A stretch of DNA of 64,000 bases, from the NCBI GenBank assembly GCA_032718475.1, contig JAUCBJ010008410.1, positions 1 to 64,000 of the forward strand, given 5' to 3'. The notes under the pieces are model-generated. The model saw only the letters and a program-made list of their open reading frames with translations. It ran no database searches and was not told the DNA's origin. Both the position numbers and the translations under genes were made by a program. Below are positions 1 to 25,559 of this stretch, in pieces (within the stretch, counting starts at the first letter, position 1; each line of letters begins with the position of its first letter). The DNA is from Nemertoderma westbladi (Eukaryota; Animalia; Xenacoelomorpha).

Positions 1-1
1 T

Positions 2-604
2 GATGATATAAATAAACTGTTTAATTCTGAAGCGAAATATAGAGATTTCGAATTCATTTTTAATACAAATAATTCTAGAATTAAATTTAAATTTCCTAAA
101 AAGTTGAAAAAAATACAATTAAGTCTACGTGGTGATTTAATACAAATTCTAGGCTTAAAACCGTTATTGGATCGGAATCATCCGGATATTCCGAATTGGG
201 ATATATACAGTACCACTACAGTAGATGAATTAAGCAATATAGAACAGCCAATATTAATTTTAAATTATAGCGGGCCAAAAATTTCGGAAATTGGCATTTT
301 AGATTTTCCAGCTCCCACGAATATAACTCGTAATAAAGACACTATCTTTATATACACAGATATTATTAAGAGCTCATTTGTTGGCGACGCTTTAGCACCG
401 CTCTTAAGAACCTGTCCTTTAACGCAATTAAATCGAAAATATATTAATCACGAATACGAGAGCATTTGCTATTACCCGTTGTTGAATAAAAAACTAAAAA
501 CAATCTTAATTACTTTACGTGACGGCCAAGGCCAATTAATTAACTTCAGCGGAGGTCGCACTGTTATAACACTTAAGTTAATACGGGGTGGCGGTGATGG
601 ATGA
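2..604 (+). CDS. Polinton minor capsid (penton-like) protein, paralogue 1, 5' partial
   Basis: Frame is open from position 2. The C-terminal motifs IFIYTDII..SFVGDALAPLLR, YYPL and ITLRDGQGQLINFSGGRTVITLKL match Polinton minor capsid proteins. Confidence 0.8.
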   Translation, partial: DDINKLFNSEAKYRDFEFIFNTNNSRIKFKFPKKLKKIQLSLRGDLIQILGLKPLLDRNHPDIPNWDIYSTTTVDELSNIEQPILILNYSGPKISEIGILDFPAPTNITRNKDTIFIYTDIIKSSFVGDALAPLLRTCPLTQLNRKYINHEYESICYYPLLNKKLKTILITLRDGQGQLINFSGGRTVITLKLIRGGGDG

Positions 605-1442
605 GTTCTACGTTAGACTACCAAGTAATTCCTGTCCAATTGATTTTCCCCGCAATAGCGCTAGTAATTATCAGATAAATTTCCACGGCGCCTTACCTAT
701 AAATCCAAACGAAAACTGGGTGGTAGGTATAAAAAGTATATTTTACTTAGCAACGTTACCGTCCATGTATAACAATGTAGAGAATGTTATTTTATTAAAA
801 AAAGGAAAAAAAAATTTTGAGGATACACTTCCATCCGGTTTGTTCTACAGTATCAATGACATTATAGATTATTTTAACACGGGGGCATTGAAAGATAAAT
901 TACAAATAGTTGAAAATACTCAGCAAAATAGGTTGCAATTTATTTTAGGGAAAACTGTGCGAGAGTTATTTATAGGTCAACAATTAGCCTATTATTTTGG
1001 AATTACTGAAAATAATCTCGGCGCGAATTTAAATCCAAATTTTAAAATTATTTTGAAGACGAAAAATAATATAAAGGGTTATTTAATAAAGGTTATCGGA
1101 AATGGAGAAAAAGCTTACCAGATGGTATTTTTATGCCCTCAACCACCCAATTCTATTCCAGAACCTAAGTCGAACATGTACGTGACTACTAATATAATTG
1201 AAAATCAATATATTAATGACTTTGGTTTAGCTTTACTTCGTCGTGTTGCGATACCTGATGACGTGAAATATGGTAGCGTAATAAATAAAGAATTTGTCAA
1301 GGATACAATTCATTATATCCCTGTAAAAAAATCATATAAGATAACATACATTCATATTGAAATAACAGACAAAGAAGGAAAAGATTTGAATTTTGAATAC
1401 GGGACAACATCTATTACATTACACTTTAAACGTATAAATTAA
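597..1442 (+). CDS. Polinton minor capsid (penton-like) protein, paralogue 2
   Basis: N-terminal FYVRLPSNS..FPRN...WVVGI and C-terminal YIPV...IHIEITDKEG.DLNFEYGTTSITLHFKR motifs. ATG at 597 (the ORF track starts at GTG 588). Confidence 0.82.
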   Translation: MDEFYVRLPSNSCPIDFPRNSASNYQINFHGALPINPNENWVVGIKSIFYLATLPSMYNNVENVILLKKGKKNFEDTLPSGLFYSINDIIDYFNTGALKDKLQIVENTQQNRLQFILGKTVRELFIGQQLAYYFGITENNLGANLNPNFKIILKTKNNIKGYLIKVIGNGEKAYQMVFLCPQPPNSIPEPKSNMYVTTNIIENQYINDFGLALLRRVAIPDDVKYGSVINKEFVKDTIHYIPVKKSYKITYIHIEITDKEGKDLNFEYGTTSITLHFKRIN

Positions 1443-1443
1443 A

Positions 1444-2004
1444 ATGGATTCTGATTTATTTCAAAGATACAGTAAACCTCAATATGGGGGTTCAGACTCG
1501 AATCTTGCTGTTTTTAAAGGTGGTAGAAGTACCAGAGGTTCGACGCAAGTTCCTGTTTTTCGAGGTGGTTCATATATTGACCCTTACGGTCAACAAATTG
1601 GCACATTTGGTCCAAACTTAAAACAACGTCGTTTTCAGCGTTATCGTAGAGGTATGCAGGCAAATCAACACGGAGAAGGTATATTTACAGACGCCTTATC
1701 GACATTGAAAAAATTTGGTAAGCCATTAGCTAAAAAAGTTTTACAGAAAGCTTTACCATTTACCACAAAATTTATGAGACAACACGTAATACCAAAAGGT
1801 AAGCGGGTCTTACATCAGCAGGCTAATACGGTTATTAATAAAGCGTTAAATAAAATGAAACCGTCAACAAGATCGGTTGTAGAAAAAGTTTATAGAGATT
1901 TAAAGCGACCCGCTAGACCAATGTCTATGAACATACATCATCGACATAGTAAAAAGAGAAATATAAAGGGCAAACTGAAACACTGCGAAAAAAGTATTTT
2001 TTAA
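1444..2004 (+). CDS. Basic Lys/Arg-rich virion core (pVII-like) precursor protein
   Basis: Very basic protein between the minor and major capsid genes, with Gly-Gly/GxG sites (QYGG, FKGG, FRGG, QHGEG) resembling adenain cleavage sites. Confidence 0.6.
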   Translation: MDSDLFQRYSKPQYGGSDSNLAVFKGGRSTRGSTQVPVFRGGSYIDPYGQQIGTFGPNLKQRRFQRYRRGMQANQHGEGIFTDALSTLKKFGKPLAKKVLQKALPFTTKFMRQHVIPKGKRVLHQQANTVINKALNKMKPSTRSVVEKVYRDLKRPARPMSMNIHHRHSKKRNIKGKLKHCEKSIF

Positions 2005-2006
2005 TA

Positions 2007-3266
2007 ATGTCAATTATTAAGGAATTAGATTTATTTTCTACACAACCAATACAGACTGAATTTAAAGCAAAGCATTATGAAACAATTTACCCCGTATCTA
2101 ATCTCAGAAGTGAATCTAGGGAGGTCACCTTCCTTGTACCCAGATCCAATGAATTCTATACGAAACTGCAAGATGCTTTATTAATTACAAAATGTACAGT
2201 ACGCTGGGATAGGCGACTTGAAAACTCTCATATATATATGCTGAATTACCCCGCTGAAACTATGTGGAGTGATATTAAAATAGACCTTAATGAGAAGCAG
2301 GTTGAAAATAGCAATAACCATTATTTCTACAAGTCGTACTTATCCAATTTATTATTTACAACTTACGAGGATAAAAATGGGCTACTGGGTGCGGGTGGCT
2401 TTCATCAACCTTTATCTGAACACGGAAATGAAATTGACTCAGACGTGCATCCTATTGACGATGCCTTTAGTAAACAAATGCAATTTGTAAGTGGATTGAC
2501 GATTGATTTTGATACTGAAACTAAAATAATACAACCCGGGTATGATTTAAGAATGCATTTTAGAAAAGTATCAAATTCGTTTATTTTTAAAATCACTCCA
2601 AACGCAAACGCCGTGACAAATCTTCGGCTAGAATTAGATGAAATAAAGATTCTAATCCCTAGAATGGAGGTTAATCCAGTAATAGAAAGCAGTCACCTAA
2701 AAGGTTTAGAGAGCTACGATATTGAATATCAATTTCAAAAGAAAGAGGTGACAACATTTACTATTCCCGCACAAACCACAAATTACACCCAAACAAACAT
2801 ATTTGATGGTAAAAAACCCAAATTAGTTATTATCGGCTTCATAACAAATAACTCTTATTCGGGAGAATTAATTAGCAATCCCTTGAAATTTGAACATTTT
2901 AACCTTAGACGTGCGGAACTGATTGTAGACGGTCTTCCAGTAGGGGGTGTAATATACGAGCCTAATTTTACAGATGGAACATATATTTTTGAGTATACTC
3001 AATTAATGAAAAACATTAATACATATATTAACGGTTATGGAGGTAATAATATAGACCATGAAACCTACTTAGGTAATTGCCCCCTCCTATCCTGGGACCT
3101 AACCGCCGACGGGTATGTTAGAGATCCGCAACCGTCGATATATACTAACGGCAAATTAAAATTAAGATTTGCCGAACCGTTGGTTGAAACCATAAATGTA
3201 ATCGTTTTTAATATTTATGATCAATCATTAAGTTTAAATAGCAGGAAAGAAATACATATCGATTAA
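2007..3266 (+). CDS. Polinton major capsid protein (double jelly-roll)
   Basis: 419 aa. N-terminus ELDLFSTQPIQT...IYPV...VTFLVP and later NPLKFEHFNL, WDLT.D and LKLRFAEPL motifs are typical of Polinton MCP. Confidence 0.9.
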   Translation: MSIIKELDLFSTQPIQTEFKAKHYETIYPVSNLRSESREVTFLVPRSNEFYTKLQDALLITKCTVRWDRRLENSHIYMLNYPAETMWSDIKIDLNEKQVENSNNHYFYKSYLSNLLFTTYEDKNGLLGAGGFHQPLSEHGNEIDSDVHPIDDAFSKQMQFVSGLTIDFDTETKIIQPGYDLRMHFRKVSNSFIFKITPNANAVTNLRLELDEIKILIPRMEVNPVIESSHLKGLESYDIEYQFQKKEVTTFTIPAQTTNYTQTNIFDGKKPKLVIIGFITNNSYSGELISNPLKFEHFNLRRAELIVDGLPVGGVIYEPNFTDGTYIFEYTQLMKNINTYINGYGGNNIDHETYLGNCPLLSWDLTADGYVRDPQPSIYTNGKLKLRFAEPLVETINVIVFNIYDQSLSLNSRKEIHID

Positions 3267-3268
3267 GT

Positions 3269-3724
3269 ATGTTATCTACAGAGGACCTTGATATGTTTCC
3301 AGTGGGCGGTCACTATTTGGGAGCGTTTCCAGCTAACAAATTACCTAAATTAGATAATAATAATAAGCGGCGGGATTATGGGTTAATAGTAAATACCGAT
3401 AAAGAGCATCTGCCCGGGATTCATTGGATCGGGATATATATACGAGATAATGAGGCCGAAGTATTTGACTCGTTTGGACCAAAATATCCAAACAGATGCA
3501 TCGAAAAATGGCTTGAGAAAAATTCCGCGAGGTGGCGTACTACACGCAAACAATTTCAAGACCCCCGGAGGACCACATGCGGTCTGTACTGTCTTTATTA
3601 TTTGGTAAATCGTATTCACACAATCTATCCAATGAGTGCGTTTACAAATAATGTGGAAATAAATGAAATTATATTATATAAATGGCTTGTTAATTATTAT
3701 AAATTAAACCAACAAACTTTGTAA
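3269..3724 (+). CDS. Adenain/Ulp1-like cysteine maturation protease
   Basis: IVNTD...PGIHW, FDSFG and Q.....TCGLYCLYYL supply the catalytic His/Asp/Gln/Cys. Confidence 0.92.
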   Translation: MLSTEDLDMFPVGGHYLGAFPANKLPKLDNNNKRRDYGLIVNTDKEHLPGIHWIGIYIRDNEAEVFDSFGPKYPNRCIEKWLEKNSARWRTTRKQFQDPRRTTCGLYCLYYLVNRIHTIYPMSAFTNNVEINEIILYKWLVNYYKLNQQTL

Positions 3725-3755
3725 TTAATTATTTAACTTTTGTTTATCAGATAAA

Positions 3756-4355
3756 ATGGATAATATTACTTTTGTTGATTTTCAATATTATAAGATAGAC
3801 AATAAAGAGTATCCGGTAGTATTTAAAGAATTTGCTATTTTCGATTCTAATTACACCAAAACTAATATAAAGACGTTTTTAATTAAAGGCCCTCCTAATA
3901 TTAAATTATCAGCATTAGATGCAGCCCACGTAAACAATTTACGGGATATGGCTTCTCACTTGCCCTGGAACTATGGAGACATTTCGCAAGACGACTTTAA
4001 AAAATATATGAAGAGATATTTAAAATATAAAAAAAATATTCATGTATTTGGGTTGATGAAGCGGGCAATATTAGTTTCCCAACTCGATGTTCTCGAGCCA
4101 AATTCGGTGGAGAAATTGGGAATATATAAGCAATATCATGATTATTTAACCCCTTGTCGATTTCACGACCGATTCACTACAGTGGAAAGTAAATGCACGT
4201 TCCACTTAAACATAAGGGATAACTGTCTGCGATACTGCTCAGCAAAACGCGTTGGGGGGTTTGAGGCTCTACACTTTTTCATGAGAAAGCGTTTAACTGC
4301 GACTGATGATGATGATAAACAGAAAGAAATAACTGCGGTGGAAGATGTACTGTAG
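3756..4355 (+). CDS. DEDD-type (Maelstrom-like) RNase H-fold nuclease-like protein
   Basis: FVDFQ...FKEFAI, LPWNYGDI and IHVFGLMKR motifs with a C-terminal C..H......C cluster. Confidence 0.55.
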   Translation: MDNITFVDFQYYKIDNKEYPVVFKEFAIFDSNYTKTNIKTFLIKGPPNIKLSALDAAHVNNLRDMASHLPWNYGDISQDDFKKYMKRYLKYKKNIHVFGLMKRAILVSQLDVLEPNSVEKLGIYKQYHDYLTPCRFHDRFTTVESKCTFHLNIRDNCLRYCSAKRVGGFEALHFFMRKRLTATDDDDKQKEITAVEDVL

Positions 4356-4682
4356 GTTTACTCTAAGCATGTAATGTGATGGGATAATATAATTTTATTT
4401 TGGTGATGATCTTGATGTTAATATAAAAATATAATAAAATATAATTTTTTTTACAACAAGTTCTCTAAAAGAGTCAATCGCGGTAGGTTAACCATGCACA
4501 TTTAACAATATGACGTAGACGTAACATGTACAGTAAGTATTCTCGATATCGTTCTAATATAGATATACTGGTATTGCGAAACATCCTATACATCGCAAAC
4601 TAATAACACATACAGTAGTTGACTAGTAATATTAGTCAGAAATGCAACATAAATTGTATAGGATGTAGTGTTAACCTGTTGG

Positions 4683-5670
4683 TACCGGTACTGATAAATT
4701 CAATAATTTATTATAAGCCTAACCACAACTGTCATCCGCTTTATCAGTACCGGTAGTGTTTTACTCTTCCAACACTGTAGTCACAGTCTACTGGTATCAG
4801 TACAGCAGTAATCTGAAGCAATAGCATACTGCTGTCATGATCTGGATTACACGCAGGAGTCTCTCATATAGGGATTAGATCACCTATCCAAACAATACAG
4901 TACTGCAGTACTGTCGTTGTTCTTGATGTAACAGCATAATCAGATAGAGCATACTGATTTCCTTTGATTAGCATTGTACCGCAGTACCAGTACTACAGTA
5001 TTAATGTAACAGTACCCGCAGTAACAAACTAGGCTAATGTATACAATATCGTGAGTCAGTTACAATCAGATGTGTACGCAGTCAGCCACTCCTATCCACA
5101 ACTGTCATCCATTTTATCAGTACAGCAGTAATCTGATGTAATAACATTTGTTTTTTTTTTCAACTATAAGGATACTGCTGTCTACCCGAACCTTGATTAG
5201 CATACTGCTGTCATAACCTAGAAGGGACGCGTAGCTCTCACATATAGGGATTAGATCACCTACCCAAACAATACAGTACTGCAGTACTGTCGCTGTTCTT
5301 GATGTAACAGTATAGTCAGATAGAGCATGCTGATTTCCTTTAATTAGCATTGTACTGCAGTACGGTACCGGTACCACAGTATTAATGTAACAGTACCCGT
5401 AGTAACAAACTGAGTCAATGTATACTTTATCGTGAGCCAGTTACAATCGGATGTGCGCGCAGTCAGCCATACTGCTGGGAAACGGTCCACCTTGCAGCCG
5501 TCTAGCCACCCTCACAGTCAGCCTCGCGGCACGCAGTCAGCCTCGCAGTCAGCCTCGCGGCATGCAGTCAGCCTCGCAACCAGCCTCGCAGCACGCAGTC
5601 AGCCTCGTGGTCGGTCATGTAGTCAGCCTCGCGGCACGCAGCCAGCCATGCAGCTAGACACGCAGTCAAC
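4683..5670. repeat. Non-coding palindrome/direct-repeat block between convergent gene modules
   Basis: 16-bp perfect inverted repeat at 4683-4698/4740-4755. Two diverged ~300-350 bp direct repeats (about 4795-5088 and 5115-5469), each with the 18-bp palindrome ACAGTACTGCAGTACTGT. About 7 copies of CAGTCAGCCTCG at 5515-5631. Confidence 0.85.
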
Positions 5671-5763
5671 CCGTGAGAGTCATGCTTATTCAAACGAGGT
5701 TAGTTTTCCCTAACTACCGATTGATTGATTGATTGAAAAATAATAATGTTTAATTTTCACCTT

Positions 5764-6309
5764 CTAATCACCAACACCTAAAGTCACAACACCAAACATT
5801 AATAAATAATTAACAAGTTTACTAAATATAGGGTAATAAATGTGAAATTTGCTAGGTGAACACATTAAAGTACATTTACCGGTATGAAAGCAGCAAATGA
5901 CTACAGTATTATTTATTCTTATTTTGCAATTATTAAAAATTTCAGGTTCATATATAACTTGAAGTTGCACATTATCAAAGACAACATAAAACCCTGTATT
6001 GTTTATCAATAACCTATAGACTACAGACTTAATACTAAAAATATAAGTACATAAATTAACAGATTTTAAAATCAAATTAATACTAGTTTTATCAAATATA
6101 TGTTTTTTTACTTTTTGGAAATTATACTTACTGCCTAATAATGTAATACGACCATTTTTAAATATTAATAATGTGGCACCAAATATCTTATATATAAACT
6201 GATTTGGTTTGAGTATGTGTTTACCAGATAATTGATTTTTTAATTCTTTCAAATTAATTGCTGACACTTGCTGGCAACTTACATTCTTATTGACTATCTG
6301 ATAGTTCAT
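5764..6309 (-). CDS. TATA-box-binding-protein (TBP)-like protein, copy 1
   Basis: Two TBP repeats, ATLLIFKNGRITLLGSK and YEPEIF...VVICCFHTGKCTL, compare well with TBP TALIFSSGKMVCTGAK and YEPELF...VLLIFVSGKVVL. At 181 aa it is the size of the TBP core. Confidence 0.82.
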   Translation of the reverse strand: MNYQIVNKNVSCQQVSAINLKELKNQLSGKHILKPNQFIYKIFGATLLIFKNGRITLLGSKYNFQKVKKHIFDKTSINLILKSVNLCTYIFSIKSVVYRLLINNTGFYVVFDNVQLQVIYEPEIFNNCKIRINNTVVICCFHTGKCTLMCSPSKFHIYYPIFSKLVNYLLMFGVVTLGVGD

Positions 6310-9300
6310 TGTTTGGTTCCTGATAAATTGGTATATTGTTTTTTTTCATAGGTTTTTCGACCTTTGTTTGATAGTGACCCCAGGGAAGCGAATGATTTTT
6401 ATTAACCCAATAAAGTTTATCATCAAATGCGCTGAGAGCAAACTTATCTCGTGCTATAGTATACACTTTGTGTAATTTACTTTGAAATTGATGTGTTTCC
6501 TTGGAAATTTCTTCGTTATCGTAATATGCCCTCAAATAATCTTCGTGACAAATATTTTTATCCACGACAGCTCTTGTTATTCCTTTTGCCCGTCGTATAT
6601 TGGAATCATTCCATTCTAAAATTGAATATAATTTTGGTCTTAAAAATACCGCTTGTTTAATCTCTCGTGAGGCTAGTTCGTCTTTACAGTAATAGAGCCT
6701 GGATTTATTTTTATCGCTGTAGAGAGGGTGATCCTTGGGGTAATTGGATGTATCTAGAATATTATTTTTAATTAAGGCTTTTAAAAAATTATTCTGCGAT
6801 GTATTATAGTAACAACCTATTAAAGAGTCCGTGTCTGATGCTACAATTTCAATTCGGCAGTTTAATTCTTTCTCAATAGGTAGCAATTTATCGTAATACA
6901 GCTGATACATATCCAATTTAGCCAAGTCCAAGACAGTACTACCTATATAGACCGGCTTATCGAGAGTTACAGAGTCTTTTACTAATAAATGTCCCGATAA
7001 GGAATCGTTATAAATCATGAAATTTTCATGATTTATTCGTTTGACTAATTGGTCACATTTTTCTTTACTATTAGCGATACGAAAGTTGCATCGGTCCCTT
7101 ATCTTCTCTATCGTTTTTCCAAATAAAGAATTGTTCAGCAATTTCGCGACAGCTGTTTAAATATAACTTTTTGCTAGCCGCCTTTGATTAATATTAAAAT
7201 CTATATAGGGTTTAAATACAAAGTCTTGATGGAAAGAATATAATTTATGGAGCTTAGTAACAATTAAACCTTGTTTTATATAAAATTTTAACAGTTTTAA
7301 ATTTACATGATAGAATTCTTTATCGAATTGTGTCAACATAAGTTTCGGTGCACACATCTTATACTTGCTATTAGTGCCTCTTTGTTTACAAACATTGTTA
7401 AATTGTTCCCTCATATAAGGTGAAAGCATTGTCTCATTTATACTTAAATGTTCTGGAGCTAAGGGTAGTTCTAATGTACGATCGTGAATATCTTTGGGAT
7501 ATTTCAAATCGCAAATTAAGAAAAACCCAATATCACCTTCAGTATCAAGATTTGTTAAATATTTTATCAGTTCTTCTGGAGCAGCATTCTCTAAATATGT
7601 AACGTTGACTTGTTCAAAACCTGAAACAGGTAGCTTTTTACTTAAATTACCAGAATACAAGGAATTAAAATCTATATTGAAAATATGACACTCTTCCTTG
7701 CTTGGATCATAATTATCAGTATCTGGTATATTTGATTCTATGTAATGCTTTCGACAGAATGAAACCCCTCCTCTAATAGATGCTTCAAAATCTCTATATG
7801 TTTGGTAATCTTTTATTAATGTTAACTTACATTTATTGTATTTCAGGGCGCAATCATAAGTGAAAGCTGCGATACTGCAATAATAAACTACTTCTAATTC
7901 GTAGTTTTGTCTACACACTCTCCTAAAGTTCTCAAATATATCAGCGAGGAGACAAACATCGAGTTTTAAGTATGCTAAAAGATAATCCTTGAGATTCACA
8001 CAGTCAAACTGACTCCATGATGCGTTGGCAAAACTATATTCCTCGGGTGTACAGGTATTTTGTGTTAATTTACTATAAAATTTGTCTATTGATGGTAATT
8101 TCGAATCATTGAATTTATTTAAATCTGTCAGATACTCGTAGGGAAATATACCTTTTCGTTTAATTGTTGCATTATTTAAATTTGGATAAAAATATTTCAT
8201 TTGCTGTTCAGTAATTGGTAGAACTGATGTTATATCCTCGCTGTCTATATCCTTTGTTGAACAATCAACTAAAGTACTTAGGGAAAAGGATAAAAATTGA
8301 TATGTGTCTAAGACACGTAGCTCGATCTTAGTTTTTTCATCTTTCACTGGTATATGCATGCTTAGTGAAATATACCTTTCAGAATTTTTAGGGATTACCT
8401 TTATATCCCAATCGGAATATTTATTATTGCTAAAACCAACTTGCAAAAGAAAATGCAAATCGTAGAGATTGCAGTTGTGTGCAGCGAGTATATACATGTG
8501 TCATTTCAACGATAAAGAGCGGTTACATGCGTTACAAGCGGCCGCTATATAGTTACCAGTAATATGTGAGTGATGTTTGTTTTTCTCAGACTTATCCTTA
8601 AATAAAACATTGCAATAAAAGCAAGTTTTAGCTTTCCAAAAACTTAACTTATCTGCATCATTAAGTATCATTCTCTCTCTTGTGTGGTCTTCCGACCACT
8701 TATATAATTGGGTGATGTCATTATATACAGAGTCTAAAAAGTCTTGAATACAGTTGTTGTCGATTGTTTTTGTAAAGGTCTTCAAATAAAATTTTGGTGG
8801 ATTGATTAATTCGGCACTAGGAACAATTAAATAACTTACAGCGCATGGAATATGATTCTGAATAAATTTACTGTTGGTGGCTGGCTCCAAAATAGATTCT
8901 ATGTCAAAATATATTACAAACAATGCTGGTAATGTTCTGTCTAAATTTCTAAAGCTAATGTGAGTTCTTTTTTCAGATGGTAGCTTCTCAACTTGACTTT
9001 TTCCTCGATAACAAACAAGACGGTGACGTTCTAGAACATCATTGGTGTAGAAAGGCGCCAAACACCGTTCACAATATTTCCTACCACGAGTATGAAGAGC
9101 TCTCGTATTCATCAAACGATTCAAGTTAGTTATGCAAACATAATGTGATTGTTTACTCGTATTCTTATTTTTTACAAGTAATATATTCAATAACTCTTTA
9201 TCTGGAGTGATTTTACTAAATGGTGCCTGTCTTAATATAGATACTCGATTGTTGTTGTAGAGTAATAAATTAATTATATATGCTGAATTCTGTTTTTCAA

Positions 9301-10309
9301 AAAGTTTAATTGCAAGCTGCCATTCTGTTGGATAATCTTTGTTCCCGTTGTCAAAAATAAAATGACACATATAATTTTTGTACTGCGAAGTACAATATTT
9401 GTTGTTCTTCACTTTGCTACTAAATTTTGTAGCTATAATTGCCCATTTAAAACAATCATTATCAGCCGTTTGTATATTTATAACACATTTTTTAACTGAT
9501 AGAGCCTTAGGTAACTCCATATAACCGTGTCCCTTATATAGTAACGACCTACACTTGGATTCAGCTACTTTAATTTCAACCCTTAATAAAGATTTAACAC
9601 GCCACCCTGAGCCACGAGTGTTAAACATGGCTATTTTTTGCATTAATTTTTCTAATACATACTCAAACCATGTGTCAAAACTTTCATGTGAATCTACGGT
9701 ATTAACTGCACCACCTGAAGAACTAAAATAGAAAGCTTCTTCTTGATCACCCTCTGAAAAATGTGATCGATACATGAGTATATTCACACCTAGCCAGGGT
9801 CTAAGTACATTCATTTCGCTAAGTTTTCCTAATAATAAAGTTTGGATGTGAGGTAGAATTTTAATTAATGATGAATGAATATCAGGAAAATCTTCATCAT
9901 TTGGAAGATTGTAAACATAGATTTCTAAACGGTTATCGTGTGCGGCTTGTTCGATGTTAAAAATTGATGAACCTTGACCAGATTTCAGTCTTTTTCTAGA
10001 TACGATAGTATTGTTTTGGTTCCGTTGTGGTGGTGGTCTAACATGATAATAACGTTGGTGACAGTCGTGACGTAAGTAATTCTCATATAAATACTCTTTA
10101 TTACAAGTAGGGCAAGTTTTTTCATACACGCAAAACTTCATTTCTTTACATCCTGTAGTTGTTTCATGTCGTTTACATATTTCTTCACGTGAACATTTCA
10201 CTCGACAATTAAAACAATTGTATTCTTCAAAATGAGATTTCACATGTGTTAAATAATTTCGTTTAGAAATTTGATGAGGACAAAATGGACATTTCAATTG
10301 TTTATCCAT
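6287..10309 (-). pseudogene. Protein-primed family B DNA polymerase (pPolB), copy 1; 1340 codons with two in-frame stops
   Basis: The three ORFs are in one frame, joined by LK*HMY (TGA 8501-8503) and SYI*TAVAKLLNNSLFGK (TAA 7157-7159). Motifs: GSGW, DNDCFKWA, FDIES, HN...YDLHF, KGIFPYEY, DFNSLY, SDTDS. Confidence 0.93.
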
Positions 10310-10865
10310 CTCTTTATTATCCTAAAAACAATTTAAAATTAATATGAATATTGTTATATATATAATCAAAAAAATTCATAAGCTACTCAACACAAATAAA
10401 ATATAATATCTAAACTTTAATTAATTTAATATTTTCAGAATGAGCTCGAATGAATCAGTTGAGCTCTTTATATATATATATATTTCAAGTTTCTACTTAT
10501 ACCAACCAATCATAAATAACAGTTACATTGGAAACTAATATCATAAATAAAGTTGCTTTTACAACTGAATTCTTTATAATAAAATCAAGTCTAAACCAAG
10601 ATGTGTATAATGCGTTTTTAATTTTCATTGATAAAGTAGGTTTTACATGCAAATGTTTTATTATGGTGGTGTAAACTCATGCATTTACATGCGAATGTTT
10701 TATACCTAATCCCGTGCTCACATTAAATATAAACTATCACCAATATTTACTCAATAAAGTCACCTTTACATGCAAATACTTTATAATAATCACACTTTGT
10801 GATAAAAAGTTACCTTTACAAGTCAGTGTGAAACTGAAAAAGAAAAGTCTCTAGTTAATAATAAA

Positions 10866-11255
10866 TCAATCTGATACTGTTTTTATATGTTCCTTATTGT
10901 AATCTGCTACCTCTTCACTTGCTTTTGTAACTTTTATTTTCTTTGTAGGTATAGAATCATTGTTGGGAATGGAAGATGTTTGAGATGTAGATCTGCGCTT
11001 TCTATCACTCGAGGTCTCTTCGATGTATGTCTTTGGATTAAATGTGGATGAAACTACTTCTGGAAATGACTTATTAACCTTAAACTTCCAAGTTGGTGGA
11101 TATAGAATCGTGAAACCGTCTGCTATATCAGTTGATGAAACATTTAACATCATATCGTAGAGAAACTCTATATATGGTATGTCTTTATCGTAATGTAACT
11201 GTAAATATTTGCTTTCCTTGTCTGTAATAATTACTTTTTTTTCTTGTACATTTAT
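10866..11255 (-). pseudogene. 5'-truncated duplicate of the 347-aa PC4-like gene
   Basis: Matches the 3' part of 17059-18102 and is cut at the duplication junction. Confidence 0.9.
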
Positions 11256-11952
11256 GAGATGTGTACGCAGTCAGCCACTCCTATCCACAACTGTCATCCA
11301 TTTTATCAGTACAGCAGTAATCTGATGTAATAACATTTGTTTTTTTTTTCAACTATAAGGATACTGCTGTCTACCCGAACCTTGATTAGCATACTGCTGT
11401 CATAACCTAGAAGGGACGCGTAGCTCTCACATATAGGGATTAGATCACCTACCCAAACAATACAGTACTGCAGTACTGTCGCTGTTCTTGATGTAACAGT
11501 ATAGTCAGATAGAGCATGCTGATTTCCTTTAATTAGCATTGTACTGCAGTACGGTACCGGTACCACAGTATTAATGTAACAGTACCCGTAGTAACAAACT
11601 GAGTCAATGTATACTTTATCGTGAGCCAGTTACAATCGGATGTGCGCGCAGTCAGCCATACTGCTGGGAAACGGTCCACCTTGCAGCCGTCTAGCCACCC
11701 TCACAGTCAGCCTCGCGGCACGCAGTCAGCCTCGCAGTCAGCCTCGCGGCATGCAGTCAGCCTCGCAACCAGCCTCGCAGCACGCAGTCAGCCTCGTGGT
11801 CGGTCATGTAGTCAGCCTCGCGGCACGCAGCCAGCCATGCAGCTAGACACGCAGTCAACCCGTGAGAGTCATGCTTATTCAAACGAGGTTAGTTTTCCCT
11901 AACTACCGATTGATTGATTGATTGAAAAATAATAATGTTTAATTTTCACCTT

Positions 11953-12498
11953 CTAATCACCAACACCTAAAGTCACAACACCAAACATTAATAAATAATT
12001 AACAAGTTTACTAAATATAGGGTAATAAATGTGAAATTTGCTAGGTGAACACATTAAAGTACATTTACCGGTATGAAAGCAGCAAATGACTACAGTATTA
12101 TTTATTCTTATTTTGCAATTATTAAAAATTTCAGGTTCATATATAACTTGAAGTTGCACATTATCAAAGACAACATAAAACCCTGTATTGTTTATCAATA
12201 ACCTATAGACTACAGACTTAATACTAAAAATATAAGTACATAAATTAACAGATTTTAAAATCAAATTAATACTAGTTTTATCAAATATATGTTTTTTTAC
12301 TTTTTGGAAATTATACTTACTGCCTAATAATGTAATACGACCATTTTTAAATATTAATAATGTGGCACCAAATATCTTATATATAAACTGATTTGGTTTG
12401 AGTATGTGTTTACCAGATAATTGATTTTTTAATTCTTTCAAATTAATTGCTGACACTTGCTGGCAACTTACATTCTTATTGACTATCTGATAGTTCAT
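11953..12498 (-). CDS. TBP-like protein, copy 2
   Basis: Translation identical to 5764-6309. Confidence 0.82.
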   Translation of the reverse strand: MNYQIVNKNVSCQQVSAINLKELKNQLSGKHILKPNQFIYKIFGATLLIFKNGRITLLGSKYNFQKVKKHIFDKTSINLILKSVNLCTYIFSIKSVVYRLLINNTGFYVVFDNVQLQVIYEPEIFNNCKIRINNTVVICCFHTGKCTLMCSPSKFHIYYPIFSKLVNYLLMFGVVTLGVGD

Positions 12499-15400
12499 TG
12501 TTTGGTTCCTGATAAATTGGTATATTGTTTTTTTTCATAGGTTTTTCGACCTTTGTTTGATAGTGACCCCAGGGAAGCGAATGATTTTTATTAACCCAAT
12601 AAAGTTTATCATCAAATGCGCTGAGAGCAAACTTATCTCGTGCTATAGTATACACTTTGTGTAATTTACTTTGAAATTGATGTGTTTCCTTGGAAATTTC
12701 TTCGTTATCGTAATATGCCCTCAAATAATCTTCGTGACAAATATTTTTATCCACGACAGCTCTTGTTATTCCTTTTGCCCGTCGTATATTGGAATCATTC
12801 CATTCTAAAATTGAATATAATTTTGGTCTTAAAAATACCGCTTGTTTAATCTCTCGTGAGGCTAGTTCGTCTTTACAGTAATAGAGCCTGGATTTATTTT
12901 TATCGCTGTAGAGAGGGTGATCCTTGGGGTAATTGGATGTATCTAGAATATTATTTTTAATTAAGGCTTTTAAAAAATTATTCTGCGATGTATTATAGTA
13001 ACAACCTATTAAAGAGTCCGTGTCTGATGCTACAATTTCAATTCGGCAGTTTAATTCTTTCTCAATAGGTAGCAATTTATCGTAATACAGCTGATACATA
13101 TCCAATTTAGCCAAGTCCAAGACAGTACTACCTATATAGACCGGCTTATCGAGAGTTACAGAGTCTTTTACTAATAAATGTCCCGATAAGGAATCGTTAT
13201 AAATCATGAAATTTTCATGATTTATTCGTTTGACTAATTGGTCACATTTTTCTTTACTATTAGCGATACGAAAGTTGCATCGGTCCCTTATCTTCTCTAT
13301 CGTTTTTCCAAATAAAGAATTGTTCAGCAATTTCGCGACAGCTGTTTAAATATAACTTTTTGCTAGCCGCCTTTGATTAATATTAAAATCTATATAGGGT
13401 TTAAATACAAAGTCTTGATGGAAAGAATATAATTTATGGAGCTTAGTAACAATTAAACCTTGTTTTATATAAAATTTTAACAGTTTTAAATTTACATGAT
13501 AGAATTCTTTATCGAATTGTGTCAACATAAGTTTCGGTGCACACATCTTATACTTGCTATTAGTGCCTCTTTGTTTACAAACATTGTTAAATTGTTCCCT
13601 CATATAAGGTGAAAGCATTGTCTCATTTATACTTAAATGTTCTGGAGCTAAGGGTAGTTCTAATGTACGATCGTGAATATCTTTGGGATATTTCAAATCG
13701 CAAATTAAGAAAAACCCAATATCACCTTCAGTATCAAGATTTGTTAAATATTTTATCAGTTCTTCTGGAGCAGCATTCTCTAAATATGTAACGTTGACTT
13801 GTTCAAAACCTGAAACAGGTAGCTTTTTACTTAAATTACCAGAATACAAGGAATTAAAATCTATATTGAAAATATGACACTCTTCCTTGCTTGGATCATA
13901 ATTATCAGTATCTGGTATATTTGATTCTATGTAATGCTTTCGACAGAATGAAACCCCTCCTCTAATAGATGCTTCAAAATCTCTATATGTTTGGTAATCT
14001 TTTATTAATGTTAACTTACATTTATTGTATTTCAGGGTGCAATCATAAGTGAAAGCTGCGATATTGCAATAATAAACTACTTCTAATTCGTAGTTTTGTC
14101 TACACACTCTCCTAAAGTTCTCAAATATATCAGCGAGGAGACAAACATCGAGTTTTAAGTATGCTAAAAGATAATCCTTGAGATTCACACAGTCAAACTG
14201 ACTCCATGATGCGTTGGCAAAACTATATTCCTCGGGTGTACAGGTATTTTGTGTTAATTTACTATAAAATTTGTCTATTGATGGTAATTTCGAATCATTG
14301 AATTTATTTAAATCTGTCAGATACTCGTAGGGAAATATACCTTTTCGTTTAATTGTTGCATTATTTAAATTTGGATAAAAATATTTCATTTGCTGTTCAG
14401 TAATTGGTAGAACTGATGTTATATCCTCGCTGTCTATATCCTTTGTTGAAAAATCAACTAAAGTACTTAGGGAAAAGGATAAAAATTGATATGTGTCTAA
14501 GACACGTAGCTCGATCTTAGTTTTTTCATCTTTCACTGGTATATGCATGCTTAGTGAAATATACCTTTCAGAATTTTTAGGGATTACCTTTATATCCCAA
14601 TCGGAATATTTATTATTGCTAAAACCAACTTGCAAAAGAAAATGCAAATCGTAGAGATTGCAGTTGTGTGCAGCGAGTATATACATGTGTCATTTCAACG
14701 ATAAAGAGTGGTTACATGCGTTACAAGCGGCCGCTATATAGTTACCAGTAATATGTGAGTGATGTTTGTTTTTCTCAGACTTATCCTTAAATAAAACATT
14801 GCAATAAAAGCAAGTTTTAGCTTTCCAAAAACTTAACTTATCTGCATCATTAAGTATCATTCTCTCTCTTGTGTGGTCTTCCGACCACTTATATAATTGG
14901 GTGATGTCATTATATACAGAGTCTAAAAAGTCTTGAATACAGTTGTTGTCGATTGTTTTTGTAAAGGTCTTCAAATAAAATTTTGGTGGATTGATTAATT
15001 CGGCACTAGGAACAATTAAATAACTTACAGCGCATGGAATATGATTCTGAATAAATTTACTGTTGGTGGCTGGCTCCAAAATAGATTCTATGTCAAAATA
15101 TATTACAAACAATGCTGGTAATGTTCTGTCTAAATTTCTAAAGCTAATGTGAGTTCTTTTTTCAGATGGTAGCTTCTCAACTTGACTTTTTCCTCGATAA
15201 CAAACAAGACGGTGATGTTCTAGAACATCATTGGTGTAGAAAGGCGCCAAACACCGTTCACAATATTTCCTACCACGAGTATGAAGAGCTCTCGTATTCA
15301 TCAAACGATTCAAGTTAGTTATGCAAACATAATGTGATTGTTTACTCGTATTCTTATTTTTTACAAGTAATATATTCAATAACTCTTTATCTGGAGTGAT

Positions 15401-16498
15401 TTTACTAAATGGTGCCTGTCTTAATATAGATACTCGATTGTTGTTGTAGAGTAATAAATTAATTATATATGCTGAATTCTGTTTTTCAAAAAGTTTAATT
15501 GCAAGCTGCCATTCTGTTGGATAATCTTTGTTCCCGTTGTCAAAAATAAAATGACACATATAATTTTTGTACTGCGAAGTACGATATTTGTTGTTCTTCA
15601 CTTTGCTACTAAATTTTGTAGCTATAATTGCCCATTTAAAACAATCATTATCAGCCGTTTGTATATTTATAACACATTTTTTAACTGATAGAGCCTTAGG
15701 TAACTCCATATAACCGTGTCCCTTATATAGTAACGACCTACACTTGGATTCAGCTACTTTAATTTCAACCCTTAATAAAGATTTAACACGCCACCCTGAG
15801 CCACGAGTGTTAAACATGGCTATTTTTTGCATTAATTTTTCTAATACATACTCAAACCATGTGTCAAAACTTTCATGTGAATCTACGGTATTAACTGCAC
15901 CACCTGAAGAACTAAAATAGAAAGCTTCTTCTTGATCACCCTCTGAAAAATGTGATCGATACATGAGTATATTCACACCTAGCCAGGGTCTAAGTACATT
16001 CATTTCGCTAAGTTTTCCTAATAATAAAGTTTGGATGTGAGGTAGAATTTTAATTAATGATGAATGAATATCAGGAAAATCTTCATCATTTGGAAGATTG
16101 TAAACATAGATTTCTAAACGGTTATCGTGTGCGGCTTGTTCGATGTTAAAAATTGATGAACCTTGACCAGATTTCAGTCTTTTTCTAGATACGATAGTAT
16201 TGTTTTGGTTCCGTTGTGGTGGTGGTCTAACATGATAATAACGTTGGTGACAGTCGTGACGTAAGTAATTCTCATATAAATACTCTTTATTACAAGTAGG
16301 GCAAGTTTTTTCATACACGCAAAACTTCATTTCTTTACATCCTGTAGTTGTTTCATGTCGTTTACATATTTCTTCACGTGAACATTTCACTCGACAATTA
16401 AAACAATTGTATTCTTCAAAATGAGATTTCACATGTGTTAAATAATTTCGTTTAGAAATTTGATGAGGACAAAATGGACATTTCAATTGTTTATCCAT
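12476..16498 (-). pseudogene. pPolB, copy 2 (same two in-frame stops)
   Basis: Same frame structure as copy 1, with 6 amino-acid differences. Confidence 0.93.
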
Positions 16499-17058
16499 CT
16501 CTTTATTATCCTAAAAACAATTTAAAATTAATATGAATATTGTTATATATATAATCAAAAAAATTCATAAGCTACTCAACACAAATAAAATATAATATCT
16601 AAACTTTAATTAATTTAATATTTTCAGAATGAGCTCGAATGAATCAGTTGAGCTCTTTATATATATATATATTTCAAGTTTCTACTTATACCAACCAATC
16701 ATAAATAACAGTTACATTGGAAACTAATATCATAAATAAAGTTGCTTTTACAACTGAATTCTTTATAATAAAATCAAGTCTAAACCAAGATGTGTATAAT
16801 GCGTTTTTAATTTTCATTGATAAAGTAGGTTTTACATGCAAATGTTTTATTATGGTGGTGTAAACTCATGCATTTACATGCGAATGTTTTATACCTAATC
16901 CCGTGCTCACATTAAATATAAACTATCACCAATATTTACTCAATAAAGTCACCTTTACATGCAAATACTTTATAATAATCACACTTTGTGATAAAAAGTT
17001 ACCTTTACAAGTCAGTGTGAAACTGAAAAAGAAAAGTCTCTATCTAGTTAATAATAAA

Positions 17059-18102
17059 TCAATCTGATACTGTTTTTATATGTTCCTTATTGTAATCTGC
17101 TACCTCTTCACTTGCTTTTGTAACTTTTATTTTCTTTGTAGGTATAGAATCATTGTTGGGAATGGAAGATGTTTGAGATGTAGATCTGCGCTTTCTATCA
17201 CTCGAGGTCTCTTCGATGTATGTCTTTGGATTAAATGTGGATGAAACTACTTCTGGAAATGACTTATTAACCTTAAACTTCCAAGTTGGTGGATATAGAA
17301 TCGTGAAACCGTCTGCTATATCAGTTGATGAAACATTTAACATCATATCGTAGAGAAACTCTATATATGGTATGTCTTTATCGTAATGTAACTGTAAATA
17401 TTTGCTTTCCTTGTCTGTAATAATTACTTTTTTTTCTTGTACATTTATTTTTACTTTAAGTCGGTCAGATAAAGCTTTATCGCCCGTATCTAGCTCTGAA
17501 AAGACACCTTCGTTACTAATTTCATAATTCCATTCATACCACAATGAATTTACTTCCGATGCTGTTAAGTTAAACCCATTATAATACCTAAGACCAATAG
17601 CATCAGAATATCTAGCTGAAATCTCCCATAGTCCCATATAAGTCGCTCCTTTATATTTGCTTACAAAACCGACAAAAGATGGGTTGGTTAAATTAACAAC
17701 AGAACACTGATTTATTATTTCGAGTGGTGGTGATAACAATTCTAATATTTCTGTCTTACTCTGAAGCAATAAATTAATGAGTGATTTGTTTAGAATTTGA
17801 CATTTGCCTTGCTTCTGAATATATACGTTTTCAGTAATAACACAGGTGGAAATATTTAACTTTCCTCTTGTAAATTCTATATTAGGATAAATATTACCTC
17901 TTGAAACTGGTGATTCCTTTTGTCGGTTGATTAATATTTCTAAGACGTCTAGAAGGTAGAGTGTATCCTGGTAAGAGAAGCACGTTGTTACATTGCTATC
18001 GCTTGAGAGTAATATAAAGTACTTGCCATAAACAATACTACAGGTATATTTATTAAATGTAAATTTCCAAGTATTGCTTGAAGTTTTTTTAAATAAATCC
18101 AT
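17059..18102 (-). CDS. Polinton protein with PC4/Sub1-like ssDNA-binding segment and basic C-terminus
   Basis: Intact 347-aa ORF. FVSKYKGATYMGLWE...GFNLTASEVNSL resembles PC4 VSVRDFKGKVLIDIREY...GISLNPEQWSQL. RKRR and KKIK look like NLS patches. Confidence 0.5.
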   Translation of the reverse strand: MDLFKKTSSNTWKFTFNKYTCSIVYGKYFILLSSDSNVTTCFSYQDTLYLLDVLEILINRQKESPVSRGNIYPNIEFTRGKLNISTCVITENVYIQKQGKCQILNKSLINLLLQSKTEILELLSPPLEIINQCSVVNLTNPSFVGFVSKYKGATYMGLWEISARYSDAIGLRYYNGFNLTASEVNSLWYEWNYEISNEGVFSELDTGDKALSDRLKVKINVQEKKVIITDKESKYLQLHYDKDIPYIEFLYDMMLNVSSTDIADGFTILYPPTWKFKVNKSFPEVVSSTFNPKTYIEETSSDRKRRSTSQTSSIPNNDSIPTKKIKVTKASEEVADYNKEHIKTVSD

Positions 18103-18541
18103 AATTAGAATGAAAACTATTTTGAAAAATAAAAACTAAATAAATGATTATTAGAATGTAAAACTTCGGTTTATATGCTTGCTTTAATAAAACAGAGTGA
18201 CTTACAGTGAGGAATATAGTTGCTTCGTGTAACAGATGCAACGTGTACAGCTAAATTTATTACATTAGCGTGAGTTAGAGAGTGAAATAGCAGTAACGTG
18301 TAACAGATGCAACGTGATCAATGCTAGCCCTGTCATTCTAACTTATATTCAACTTAGTTGATCGACCAGTTACATCGATAAAAGAAATTGATTATTATTA
18401 ATAGTCGAATTAATGTATTCTACGCTATAGTAATTATGTTAAGGAACTAGAAGCTATTTATAAACATCTGCTACCAGTGATGAAGATGAAGAATTCAATG
18501 ACTATGGTATAACTCAGATATTTATCGCCTTTTTCTCTCGA

Positions 18542-18615
18542 GGTTGGATGGAAGAGTGATTGGTGAGTTGTGAGGAGTTATATCGGTCCCGGGTTCGAAC
18601 CCTGTTGAATATTTT
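18542..18615 (+). promoter_or_regulatory. tRNA-like RNA polymerase III A-box/B-box element
   Basis: A-box-like TGGAAGAGTGA (18549) and B-box GGTTCGAACCC (18592) at tRNA spacing, a T-arm-like stem and a TTTT after it. No acceptor stem. Confidence 0.4.
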
Positions 18616-18616
18616 G

Positions 18617-18930
18617 TTATCTGAAAAATTGCAAAATTAAATTTAGTTACTAGTGAAAAATAGCGATTTGAAAAATAATAGAAGTTACCTGATGCTAAGT
18701 GTAGACACCCGAACACCTGTAAAATAAAGGTTGGTGATTGGATGCAGTACTAGCATTGGGTGACTAATAACGCTTATCTGAAAAATTGCAAAATTAAATT
18801 TAGTTACTAGTGAAAAATAGCGATTTGAAAAATAATAGAAGTTACCTGATGCTAAGTGTAGACACCCGAACACCTGTAAAATAAAGGTTGGTGATTGGAT
18901 GCAGTACTAGCGTTGGGTGACTAATAATGC
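18617..18930. repeat. 2 x 157-bp tandem repeat in the Polinton subterminal/TIR region
   Basis: 18617-18773 and 18774-18930 are almost identical. Confidence 0.95.
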
Positions 18931-19299
18931 CTCTAGCGGAATAAGCGGGAACTTGAGAAGTTACCATGGTTACGGATGAAATGCTGACATCTGATTGGTT
19001 GAAATAATAACGACCACTGCAAAAGGTTGAAATGGTGGCTTCTGATTGGCTGCAGTACCAGAAATGGATGGTAATGATGGACTACGGGTGACCTTGGATG
19101 AGGGGCCATGTAATGTATACTACTACTGTCTATATGGGATTCTGCTCTATAATAGTTATGTAACCTTATCCAGAAGACTACTACGTTCAGCATGAAGTCG
19201 CTCCTAGAAGTTGTGACCAGAAGCGGTTTACTGCCACAACTGAAAGATTTGAGAATGAGAACCATCCTGAAGAAATACCCTCTCAGACATTGCCTGTGT

Positions 19300-25175: not shown

Positions 25176-25559
25176 GTTTATAATAATATATACATATAAT
25201 TAACATTAGCTAAGCAACCGACATGTGTATTATGAAGCTCAGGCAATTACAAAATCTTTTTTTAGTGTTTTCACAAATGGTGCCTTACGCAGTTTCCTAT
25301 AGCAGCAATCCTACTTACTATAGCAATGGGTTTGCCATTCAATTATACAGTATTAATTATATCATGAATTTTAATTTTTTAGGCCCTTTTACATACTGTA
25401 AGGTGACTGACAAGATTAGATGTTAAGGTTATCTCTATTACAACACTGATATTATAATATATTCATCGTCAGACAATACAATATTGAAAAAGTACCGGTA
25501 TGCATATATAAAACCAAACACCAAGCGAACTGTAACAACAGGTAGGCCTACACGTCAAC

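What the first reader, a model, noticed from the sequence alone, without database searches (positions are those of the whole stretch)
5764..18615. Candidate virus-encoded transcription module: TBP-like + PC4-like + Zn-finger PolB + Pol III-type element
Seen: the minus-strand block runs PC4-like gene, then PolB with N-terminal C2H2-like fingers, then the TBP-like gene. There is a TATA+Inr-like promoter before PolB (minus strand TATATAAAG...TCATTC, about 10437-10485) and an A/B-box element near the terminus. Established: cellular PC4 and TBP act together in Pol II and Pol III pre-initiation. Inference: these may form an early replication/transcription cassette that switches on the opposite-strand capsid block. 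This is the best candidate for an undescribed system in the window.
Basis: inference. Interest (0 to 1): 0.75.

Follow-up and report, generated by a model that had tools for sequence, protein, structure and literature searches.

The report
Broken Maverick carrying its own TBP
A disabled, partly duplicated copy of a virus-like Maverick transposon carries a real, inherited gene for its own TATA-binding protein, which likely helps start transcription of its own genes, but the proposed PC4 partner could not be confirmed and more likely serves DNA copying.

Summary
Window 1-19127 is the right part of an endogenous Maverick/Polinton. The finding spans a 6.2-kb tandem duplication (99.8%), and both PolB copies carry two in-frame stops. 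The TBP-like gene is real: Pfam E=3.5e-10, model pLDDT 80, TBP fold Z 11.9. It is also inherited: 3 of the 8 other members of the window's PolB clade carry one. The 347-aa protein has a PC4-like look by eye, but every profile test was blank. No homologue of it was found in 173 related loci. None of the 8 TBP loci has a clear PC4 gene, and none of the 4 clear PC4 loci has TBP; many of these loci are fragments. The TATA+Inr before PolB and an A/B-box unit are present. The A/B-box unit looks tRNA-derived and points away from the genes. No shared capsid-promoter motif was detected. The four-part module is therefore not supported. The best reading is an element-encoded TBP (role inferred) beside an unrelated probable replication helper. 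A TBP gene is already labelled in MELD virus maps, and this scan has reported TBP-bearing Mavericks on other DNA several times.

The parts
11953..12498 (-). TBP-like gene, 181 aa, intact; start overlaps the PolB 3' end by 23 nt
   Evidence: PF00352 E=3.5e-10 (identical left copy); Atlas 0.95 to TBP clusters; model pLDDT 80.5; Foldseek E 3e-8; VIA Z 11.9, rmsd 3.5, 163 aligned
5764..6309 (-). Duplicate TBP-like gene, identical protein
12476..16498 (-). Protein-primed-type PolB, 1340 codons, with N-terminal finger-like motifs; broken by in-frame stops at 14690-14692 and 13346-13348
   Evidence: read with X; 923 homologues at E<=1e-20, best 37% identity
6287..10309 (-). Duplicate PolB with the same two stops (8501-8503, 7157-7159)
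17059..18102 (-). 347-aa ORF; PC4-like by eye only (residues about 143-190); likely low-complexity basic tail
   Evidence: one homologue, P0001, E=5e-4 in 1.84 billion representatives; no Pfam or PDB match; model pLDDT 30.6
10866..11255 (-). 3' remnant of the 347-aa gene at the duplication junction
5065..17448 (.). Tandem duplication of a 6.19-kb unit (5065-11255 / 11254-17448), 99.8% identical
16627..16671 (-). TATA + Inr-like core promoter before PolB (duplicate at 10438-10482)
16690..16980 (-). Region upstream of the PolB TATA: three 34-nt repeats, three GCATGTAAA words, two octamer-type words, one CCAAT-type word
   Evidence: (family D14); 'octamer' and 'CCAAT' labels recalled
18549..18614 (+). 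A-box-like word, exact B box 43 nt later, TTTT: tRNA-spaced Pol III-type unit without a cloverleaf, pointing toward the terminus
   Evidence: no tRNA, no Rfam match there, fold z=+0.70
18617..19127 (.). Terminal region: 157-nt tandem pair, CCAAT-type words, end at ...ACTACT (about 19127)
   Evidence: low-depth flank contigs begin at 19125 in X2 and X3; terminal word recalled as typical of Mavericks
1..4355 (+). Convergent virion block: two penton-like ORFs (<1-604, 597-1442), 186-aa basic ORF, capsid-like ORF 2007-3266, cysteine protease 3269-3724, 199-aa ORF 3756-4355
   Evidence: PF00770 E=5e-5; homologues in related loci, capsid-like ORF E=5e-45; 'penton' and 'major capsid' labels recalled, not given by a call

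Best explanation
This is a polymerase-dead, internally duplicated copy of an animal Maverick whose lineage carries its own divergent TATA-binding protein, which likely marks the element's promoters for the host's RNA polymerase II, while the 347-aa protein is likely an unrelated single-stranded-DNA-binding helper for replication and the A/B-box unit is likely a tRNA-derived passenger. Shown: TBP fold, presence of TBP in PolB-clade relatives, gene order, stops, duplication. Inferred: host factors would start the replication block from the canonical TATA+Inr; the TBP, made from or inside the PolB transcription unit, would then serve other (probably virion) promoters, as herpesvirus TBP-like proteins do. 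Weakly inferred: the role of the 347-aa protein.
For: TBP identity. The C-terminal repeat keeps Y120-E-P-E-I-F125, F141 and G144; the N-terminal repeat keeps F50 and G59. F50, G59, F125, F141 and G144 are invariant in all 9 element TBPs, and the YEPE.F word matches archaeal TBP. The window PolB sits in a 9-row clade (SH-aLRT 99, quick tree). Three of the 8 other rows carry TBP (L031, L039, L040); the other five hold about 2 kb or less beyond PolB. In L039 and L040 TBP lies just downstream of PolB on the same strand, as here. In TBP-bearing relatives a shared upstream word is enriched: L125 TATAAAC 8 of 11 genes (0 of 40 permutations), L031 CATAAAC 6 of 13 (1 of 40), L040 GTTAAGC with one mismatch 9 of 15 (1 of 40). 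PC4 genes occur in related elements with no TBP detected (L016, L037, L127, L128). A phage PC4-fold protein is described as a replication factor (PMC7549692, passages). The clade relative L031 has a tRNA-Cys with the same B box, and L151 has a tRNA-Leu.
Against: No shared promoter word was detected in the window itself (27 of 40 and 14 of 40 permutations as good). TATAA precedes 4 of 5 virion genes, p=0.039 uncorrected among 7 patterns. Many TBP-less loci also show enriched A/T words upstream of genes, so the motif link is not specific. The window TBP is divergent: the conserved Gly after the last strand is C150, and the N-terminal stirrup is shortened. The 347-aa protein has no demonstrated fold. 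The left arm of the element (integrase, ATPase, first promoters) is outside the window. There are no expression or binding data.
Confidence: 0.5

Rival explanations
1. One reading: TBP-like and PC4-like proteins act together as a private pre-initiation module that switches on the capsid block, with the Pol III unit part of it.
For: Both genes flank PolB on one strand. L039 and L040 have two small genes between PolB and TBP, one with weak PC4 similarity (HHalign 50%, E=1.6e-4). Residues 143-190 of the 347-aa protein resemble the PC4 core printed by eye. The low-confidence model shows four beta-beta-beta-(beta)-alpha units, which is the PC4-like topology (PMC7549692). Earlier scan notes report TBP and PC4 together in other genomes (unchecked).
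Against: None of 8 TBP loci has a profile-detectable PC4, and none of 4 PC4 loci has TBP. L031 (19 kb) and L125 (12.7 kb) have TBP with no PC4-like candidate. No homologue of the 347-aa protein was found in 173 loci. It ranks 2676 of 4456 against the element PC4 profile. The A/B-box unit points away from the genes.
Confidence: 0.13
2. The TBP-like protein is not a late-gene activator. It is a decoy or repressor that binds host TFIIB or TATA DNA, or it has a role at the replication origin.
For: It keeps the C-terminal stirrup word YEPE (recalled as the TFIIB contact) while its N-terminal stirrup is shortened. No promoter word was found in the window. It is tightly coupled to the PolB 3' end. 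No TFIIB-like gene was found in 1-19127.
Against: Its position is not fixed: in L031 and L125 it lies among packaging and virion genes. Four other relatives pair TBP with a TFIIB-like gene, which fits initiation. Herpesvirus TBP-like proteins activate late genes (PMC4893493, passages).
Confidence: 0.22
3. The TBP-like gene here is a decaying passenger with no current role.
For: This insertion has a dead PolB. Its TBP has 14-25% identity to relatives and lacks some residues conserved in them.
Against: The ORF is intact and folds confidently. At the four PolB stop positions, the listed contigs from other copies all read otherwise wherever the table shows them (three of the four positions are listed), so the damage looks private to this insertion. 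TBP is kept across a deep clade.
Confidence: 0.15

Closest known systems
Mavericks/Polintons (adintoviruses, MELD viruses; Starrett et al. 2021, PMC8502044 and bioRxiv 10.1101/697771; passages and figure legends seen, one supplement searched with no TBP/PC4/TATA hit)
   Same: PolB, adenain-type protease, capsid-like genes, terminal repeat end. The Fig. [quoted passage not shown]
   Different: No analysis of that TBP appears in the passages seen, and I could not see which virus bears it. No PC4 is mentioned. Here the gene is tied to a PolB clade.
Beta/gamma-herpesvirus TBP-like late factors BcRF1/ORF24/UL87 (PMC4893493, passages)
   Same: A virus-encoded TBP-fold protein in a virus that uses host Pol II; a functional model for late-gene activation.
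   Different: Those act in a six-protein complex on a TATT box. This is a stand-alone 181-aa two-repeat TBP, and no dedicated box was detected in the window.
TBP/TFIIB-like factors of Nucleocytoviricota (poxvirus VITF-3, PMC12917281, abstract only; BFVD hits)
   Same: Divergent viral TBP fold (best BFVD match E=3.5e-9).
   Different: Those work with a viral RNA polymerase. No polymerase or TFIIB-like gene was seen in the part of this element in view.
PC4-like fold family (PF02229; human PC4, phage T5 factor, Pur-alpha, Whirly; PMC7549692, passages)
   Same: Short by-eye motif resemblance and a predicted repeat of strands followed by a helix.
   Different: No significant sequence, profile or structure match was obtained.

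Membership tests
TBP (PF00352) | Profile match above the curated cut-off, two repeats | tested here: met
   40 bits vs cut-off 22.9, 2 stretches
TBP (PF00352) | Saddle fold over the whole chain | tested here: met
   pLDDT 80.5; Z 11.9, rmsd 3.5, 163 aligned; the top 38 rows are all TBP, next fold Z 7.8
TBP (PF00352) | Four DNA-intercalating Phe and the acidic TFIIB stirrup (roles recalled) | tested here: inconclusive
   F50, F125, F141 and YEPE kept; the first Phe position appears lost with a shortened stirrup (read by eye)
TBP (PF00352) | Binds TATA-type DNA and supports initiation | not testable with these tools
   needs bench assays
PC4-like domain | Sequence-profile match to PF02229 or to element PC4 repeats | tested here: not met
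   Pfam blank for the whole protein, three pieces and P0001; HHalign E 0.23-0.48; shuffles z<=1.9. The family is defined by fold, so this lowers but does not exclude membership
PC4-like domain | beta-beta-beta-beta-alpha swapped-dimer fold | tested here: inconclusive
   model pLDDT 30.6 from a 2-sequence alignment
PC4-like domain | ssDNA binding | not testable with these tools
   bench
Maverick/Polinton | Protein-primed-type PolB, protease, capsid-like genes | tested here: met
Maverick/Polinton | Integrase, packaging ATPase, paired terminal inverted repeats, target-site duplication | not testable with these tools
   left arm lies outside the window; no genome held. Relatives L031, L040 and L125 carry integrase-like and ATPase-like ORFs (labels by eye)
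tRNA gene | Cloverleaf / covariance-model match | tested here: not met
Type 2 Pol III promoter | A box, B box at tRNA spacing, oligo-T end | tested here: inconclusive
   B box exact, A box imperfect, 43-nt spacing, TTTT; pattern drawn post hoc, 0 of 300 Markov resamples; it also matches the L031 tRNA and no other of 173 loci. Transcription not shown

The most novel reading that the evidence does not exclude
A small integrating DNA virus with no RNA polymerase runs its own cascade: host factors fire the canonical TATA+Inr replication block, whose TBP-like product, helped by a tandem four-repeat PC4-fold protein that melts or binds DNA, redirects host Pol II to virion promoters, while a tRNA-derived Pol III unit in the terminal region makes a short VA-like RNA or a TFIIIC boundary. 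This would be a minimal viral pre-initiation system.
Probability: 0.13. Interest if true: 0.75.

Novelty: new variant of a known kind. Interest (0 to 1): 0.42.

Why it matters
How Mavericks time their virion genes without a polymerase of their own is, to my knowledge, unresolved. A 181-aa stand-alone TBP inherited in one PolB clade, and TBP+TFIIB pairs in other relatives, make that question directly testable with reporters and DNA-binding assays. The gain is limited: a TBP label already exists in published MELD virus maps, viral TBPs are known from larger viruses, this scan has reported the trait repeatedly, and the distinctive claim here (a PC4 partnership) did not hold up.

Tried and rejected
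Word-indexed homologue searches found nothing for the TBP-like protein or the 347-aa protein (near lengths only). The Atlas gave no usable hit for the 347-aa protein. PHROGs was uninformative. Viral-contig scans with single window proteins or with an element PC4 found no loci; the capsid alignment scan returned only L016; the TBP alignment could not be scanned. The PF00352 search reached only 7 of 28 viral records, with 0 of 7 matches. The Foldseek search with the pLDDT-30 model of the 347-aa protein gave no match and is meaningless at that confidence. Co-folding TBP-like (1-175) with the 347-aa protein (1-262) gave 'no answer', score 0.00, alignments not used; this is not evidence either way. 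No RNA holder was listed among sequencing runs, which is no evidence on expression; X5 is only guessed to be RNA. My guess that L031/L125 carry an OB-fold SSB in place of PC4 got no PDB or Pfam support. My recalled reading of the 199-aa family as exonuclease-like got none either. The two small L039/L040 genes had no PDB match, and one of them none to element PC4. The idea that the B box is conserved as a unique element RNA was rejected: the matching site in L031 is an ordinary tRNA-Cys. Whether the duplication is real or an assembly artefact was not settled; the joint tables were cut. Literature: 8 answered searches showed no paper on Polinton TBP function or Polinton PC4 in their listings. 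Term look-ups in PMC8097293, PMC11131425, PMC11161782, PMC11071296 and bioRxiv 10.64898/2026.06.19.733378 found no TATA or PC4 mention. The library lacks most subscription papers, and preprint supplements were not seen.
Full report
Setting. Window 1-19127 is the right-hand part of an endogenous Maverick/Polinton. A + strand block (two penton-like ORFs, a 186-aa basic ORF, a 419-aa capsid-like ORF, a protease with PF00770 E=5e-5, a 199-aa ORF) faces a - strand block tail to tail ('penton' and 'capsid' are my recalled labels for families matched in related loci). The end is placed at about 19127: the sequence ends in ACTACT there (recalled as a typical terminus), and low-depth flank contigs in runs X2 and X3 begin at 19125. 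The contig over the 347-aa gene in X3 has depth 5288 against about 32 for flank contigs. This suggests a multi-copy family but is not a count. No genome is held for the window, so the left arm is unseen.

What the finding's text leaves out. Its span covers two copies of one unit: 5065-11255 repeats 11254-17448 at 99.8%, with 7 substitutions and one 4-nt indel. Only the right copy has the whole 347-aa gene. PolB is one 1340-codon frame broken by two in-frame stops (codons 603 and 1051), the same in both copies. Where one search lists those positions (7159, 13348, 14692), all laid depth reads otherwise. The stops therefore look private to this insertion and older than the duplication, or the duplication is an assembly artefact; I could not tell which.

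TBP-like gene: confirmed. It matches Pfam PF00352 at E=3.5e-10 with two stretches and scores 0.95 to TBP clusters in the Atlas. A 9-sequence alignment gave a model of pLDDT 80.5 that matches solved TBPs (Foldseek E 3e-8; Z 11.9, rmsd 3.5, 163 residues, next unrelated fold 7.8). It keeps F50, G59, YEPEIF (120-125), F141 and G144. The N-terminal stirrup is shorter and seems to lack the first Phe, and C150 replaces a Gly kept in the other eight (the roles of these residues are recalled). Its start overlaps the PolB end by 23 nt, so it has no intergenic promoter of its own.

Inheritance. Most are distant (24-39% identity) and many are fragments. An iterated profile found TBP-like genes in 8 of 173, all 8 confirmed by Pfam. 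A quick IQ-TREE tree used 67 of the 127 loci with at least 300 aligned residues (kept if 7 kb or longer, labelled, or above 250 bits) plus the window. L141, L151, L156 and L157 were absent for lack of such a match, and the careful search did not finish. The window falls on a long branch in a 9-row clade (SH-aLRT 99) with L031, L039 and L040, which carry TBP, and five short contigs. L125, also with TBP, falls elsewhere. The four loci left out of the tree each have TBP beside a TFIIB-like gene (PF00382 E 4e-6 to 1e-10). No TFIIB-like segment was found in window 1-19127 (best E 0.51).

347-aa protein: PC4 not confirmed. A full HMMER scan of 1.84 billion representatives gave one homologue, P0001 (E=5e-4, residues 95-190), and the 173 loci gave none (best E 0.85). 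Pfam, PDB profile search, HHalign against six element PC4 repeats and shuffle tests were all blank, and the model is unusable (pLDDT 30.6). Two weak hints remain in favour. Residues 143-190 resemble the human PC4 core printed by eye (aromatic-Lys-Gly turn; Gly-hydrophobic-x-Leu before a helix; similar spacing). The model's secondary structure shows four strand-strand-strand-helix units, the repeat described for PC4-like folds (PMC7549692, passages). I put the PC4-type fold at roughly even odds.

Co-occurrence. Clear PC4 genes lie in L016, L037, L127 and L128 (Pfam 1e-14 for L037, weaker for L016 and L128, L127 by the iterated profile; the pooled profile hits human PC4 at 6e-16). None of the four has TBP, but three are under 10 kb. 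None of the 8 TBP loci has a clear PC4. The exception in kind is L039/L040, where one of two small genes between PolB and TBP resembles PC4 weakly (50%, E=1.6e-4). These tests are insensitive, as their failure on that gene's neighbour and on the 347-aa protein may show, so absences are weak. Still, the pattern fits a PolB-side accessory rather than a TBP partner. A phage PC4-fold protein is described as a replication factor (PMC7549692), and protein-primed strand-displacement replication needs an ssDNA-binding protein (established knowledge). The gene most often found with this TBP type is instead the 199-aa family: window E=2.4e-8 to a profile of five relatives, directly downstream of TBP in L040 and L125, elsewhere in L031, but also in TBP-less L024 and L041.

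Zinc fingers. Three finger-like Cys/His motifs open the PolB. Pfam misses them, but 7 of 9 related N-termini hit PF00096 and the other two hit related finger families. They are a group trait, not a mark of this cassette.

Promoters. The TATA+Inr before PolB is there with canonical spacing, and its significance is modest. It is a canonical type that host TBP could read, with repeated upstream words. Earlier scan notes suggested a shared variant TATA before virion genes. In the window I found none (TATAA before 4 of 5 genes, uncorrected p=0.039), with only five genes in view. L125, L031 and L040 show such words (0, 1 and 1 of 40 permutations), the three TBP+TFIIB loci tested do not, and many TBP-less loci show A/T-rich words as well. 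Activation of the capsid block is therefore an analogy with herpesvirus late factors (PMC4893493, passages), not a result.

Pol III-type unit. On the + strand, 18549-18614 has an imperfect A box, an exact B box 43 nt later (0.17 expected) and TTTT. The post hoc pattern occurred in 0 of 300 resamples and, among 173 loci, only at the L031 tRNA-Cys. It is not a tRNA, has no Rfam match and has no unusual fold. Two of 14 loci scanned hold tRNAs. A tRNA-derived remnant, possibly still transcribed, is the simplest reading, and nothing links it to TBP or the 347-aa gene.

Novelty. Starrett et al. label a TBP-like gene in MELD virus maps, with no analysis in the passages seen. My searches found no paper on its function or on Polinton PC4 (listed under Tried and rejected). 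This scan has reported TBP-bearing and TBP+TFIIB-bearing Mavericks on other DNA several times (unchecked notes, not support). Verdict: a real element-encoded TBP in a disabled copy, a new variant of a known kind; the four-part module is not supported.

Noticed in passing
L141:3956-5166, L151:5125-6389, L156:5225-6618, L157:117-1279: Four related elements carry a TBP-like gene directly beside a TFIIB-like gene, a better candidate for a viral initiation module than the window's genes.
   Followed up: partly
L031:10156-10227 (+) and about 9995-10068 (-); L151:12202-12285 (-): tRNA-Cys and tRNA-Leu genes in related elements; L031 also has a short tRNA-like unit that seems to lack an anticodon arm (seen by eye).
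   Followed up: partly
window 16690-16980 (duplicate 10500-10790): Three 34-nt repeats with inverted ends, three GCATGTAAA words (none elsewhere in the window outside the duplicate) and two octamer-type words upstream of the PolB TATA; they could be sites for a host POU-type factor.
   Followed up: partly
window 18100-19050: Five CCAAT-type words on the minus strand, a twice-repeated 20-mer (18226-18245, 18297-18316), a TATA-like word at 18462 and what looks by eye like a 5'-UTR intron (about 18205-18117) before the 347-aa gene.
   Followed up: no
window 3756-4355: 199-aa gene of a family found beside TBP in L040 and L125; acidic N-terminal motif, no Pfam or PDB assignment.
   Followed up: partly
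window 4700-5650: Non-coding gap between the convergent blocks holds a 270-nt imperfect duplicate and GC-rich 12/19/31-nt tandem arrays; contigs of other copies skip parts of it.
   Followed up: no
window 1-4550 versus 17551-18200: Summed contig depth is about 6-9 times higher over the virion block than over the 347-aa gene in X1 and X3; this may mean the virion block is shared with subfamilies that have another replication arm, but depth is no copy number.
   Followed up: no
window 28099-29304 (-); 22883-25206: A 401-aa transposase-like ORF (weak PF21788, E=0.006) and reverse-transcriptase-like fragments (by eye) in the host flank.
   Followed up: no
L037:4778-5221, L157:1508-1933, L031:11783-12640: Bcl-2, BIR and KilA-N genes in related elements.
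   Followed up: no
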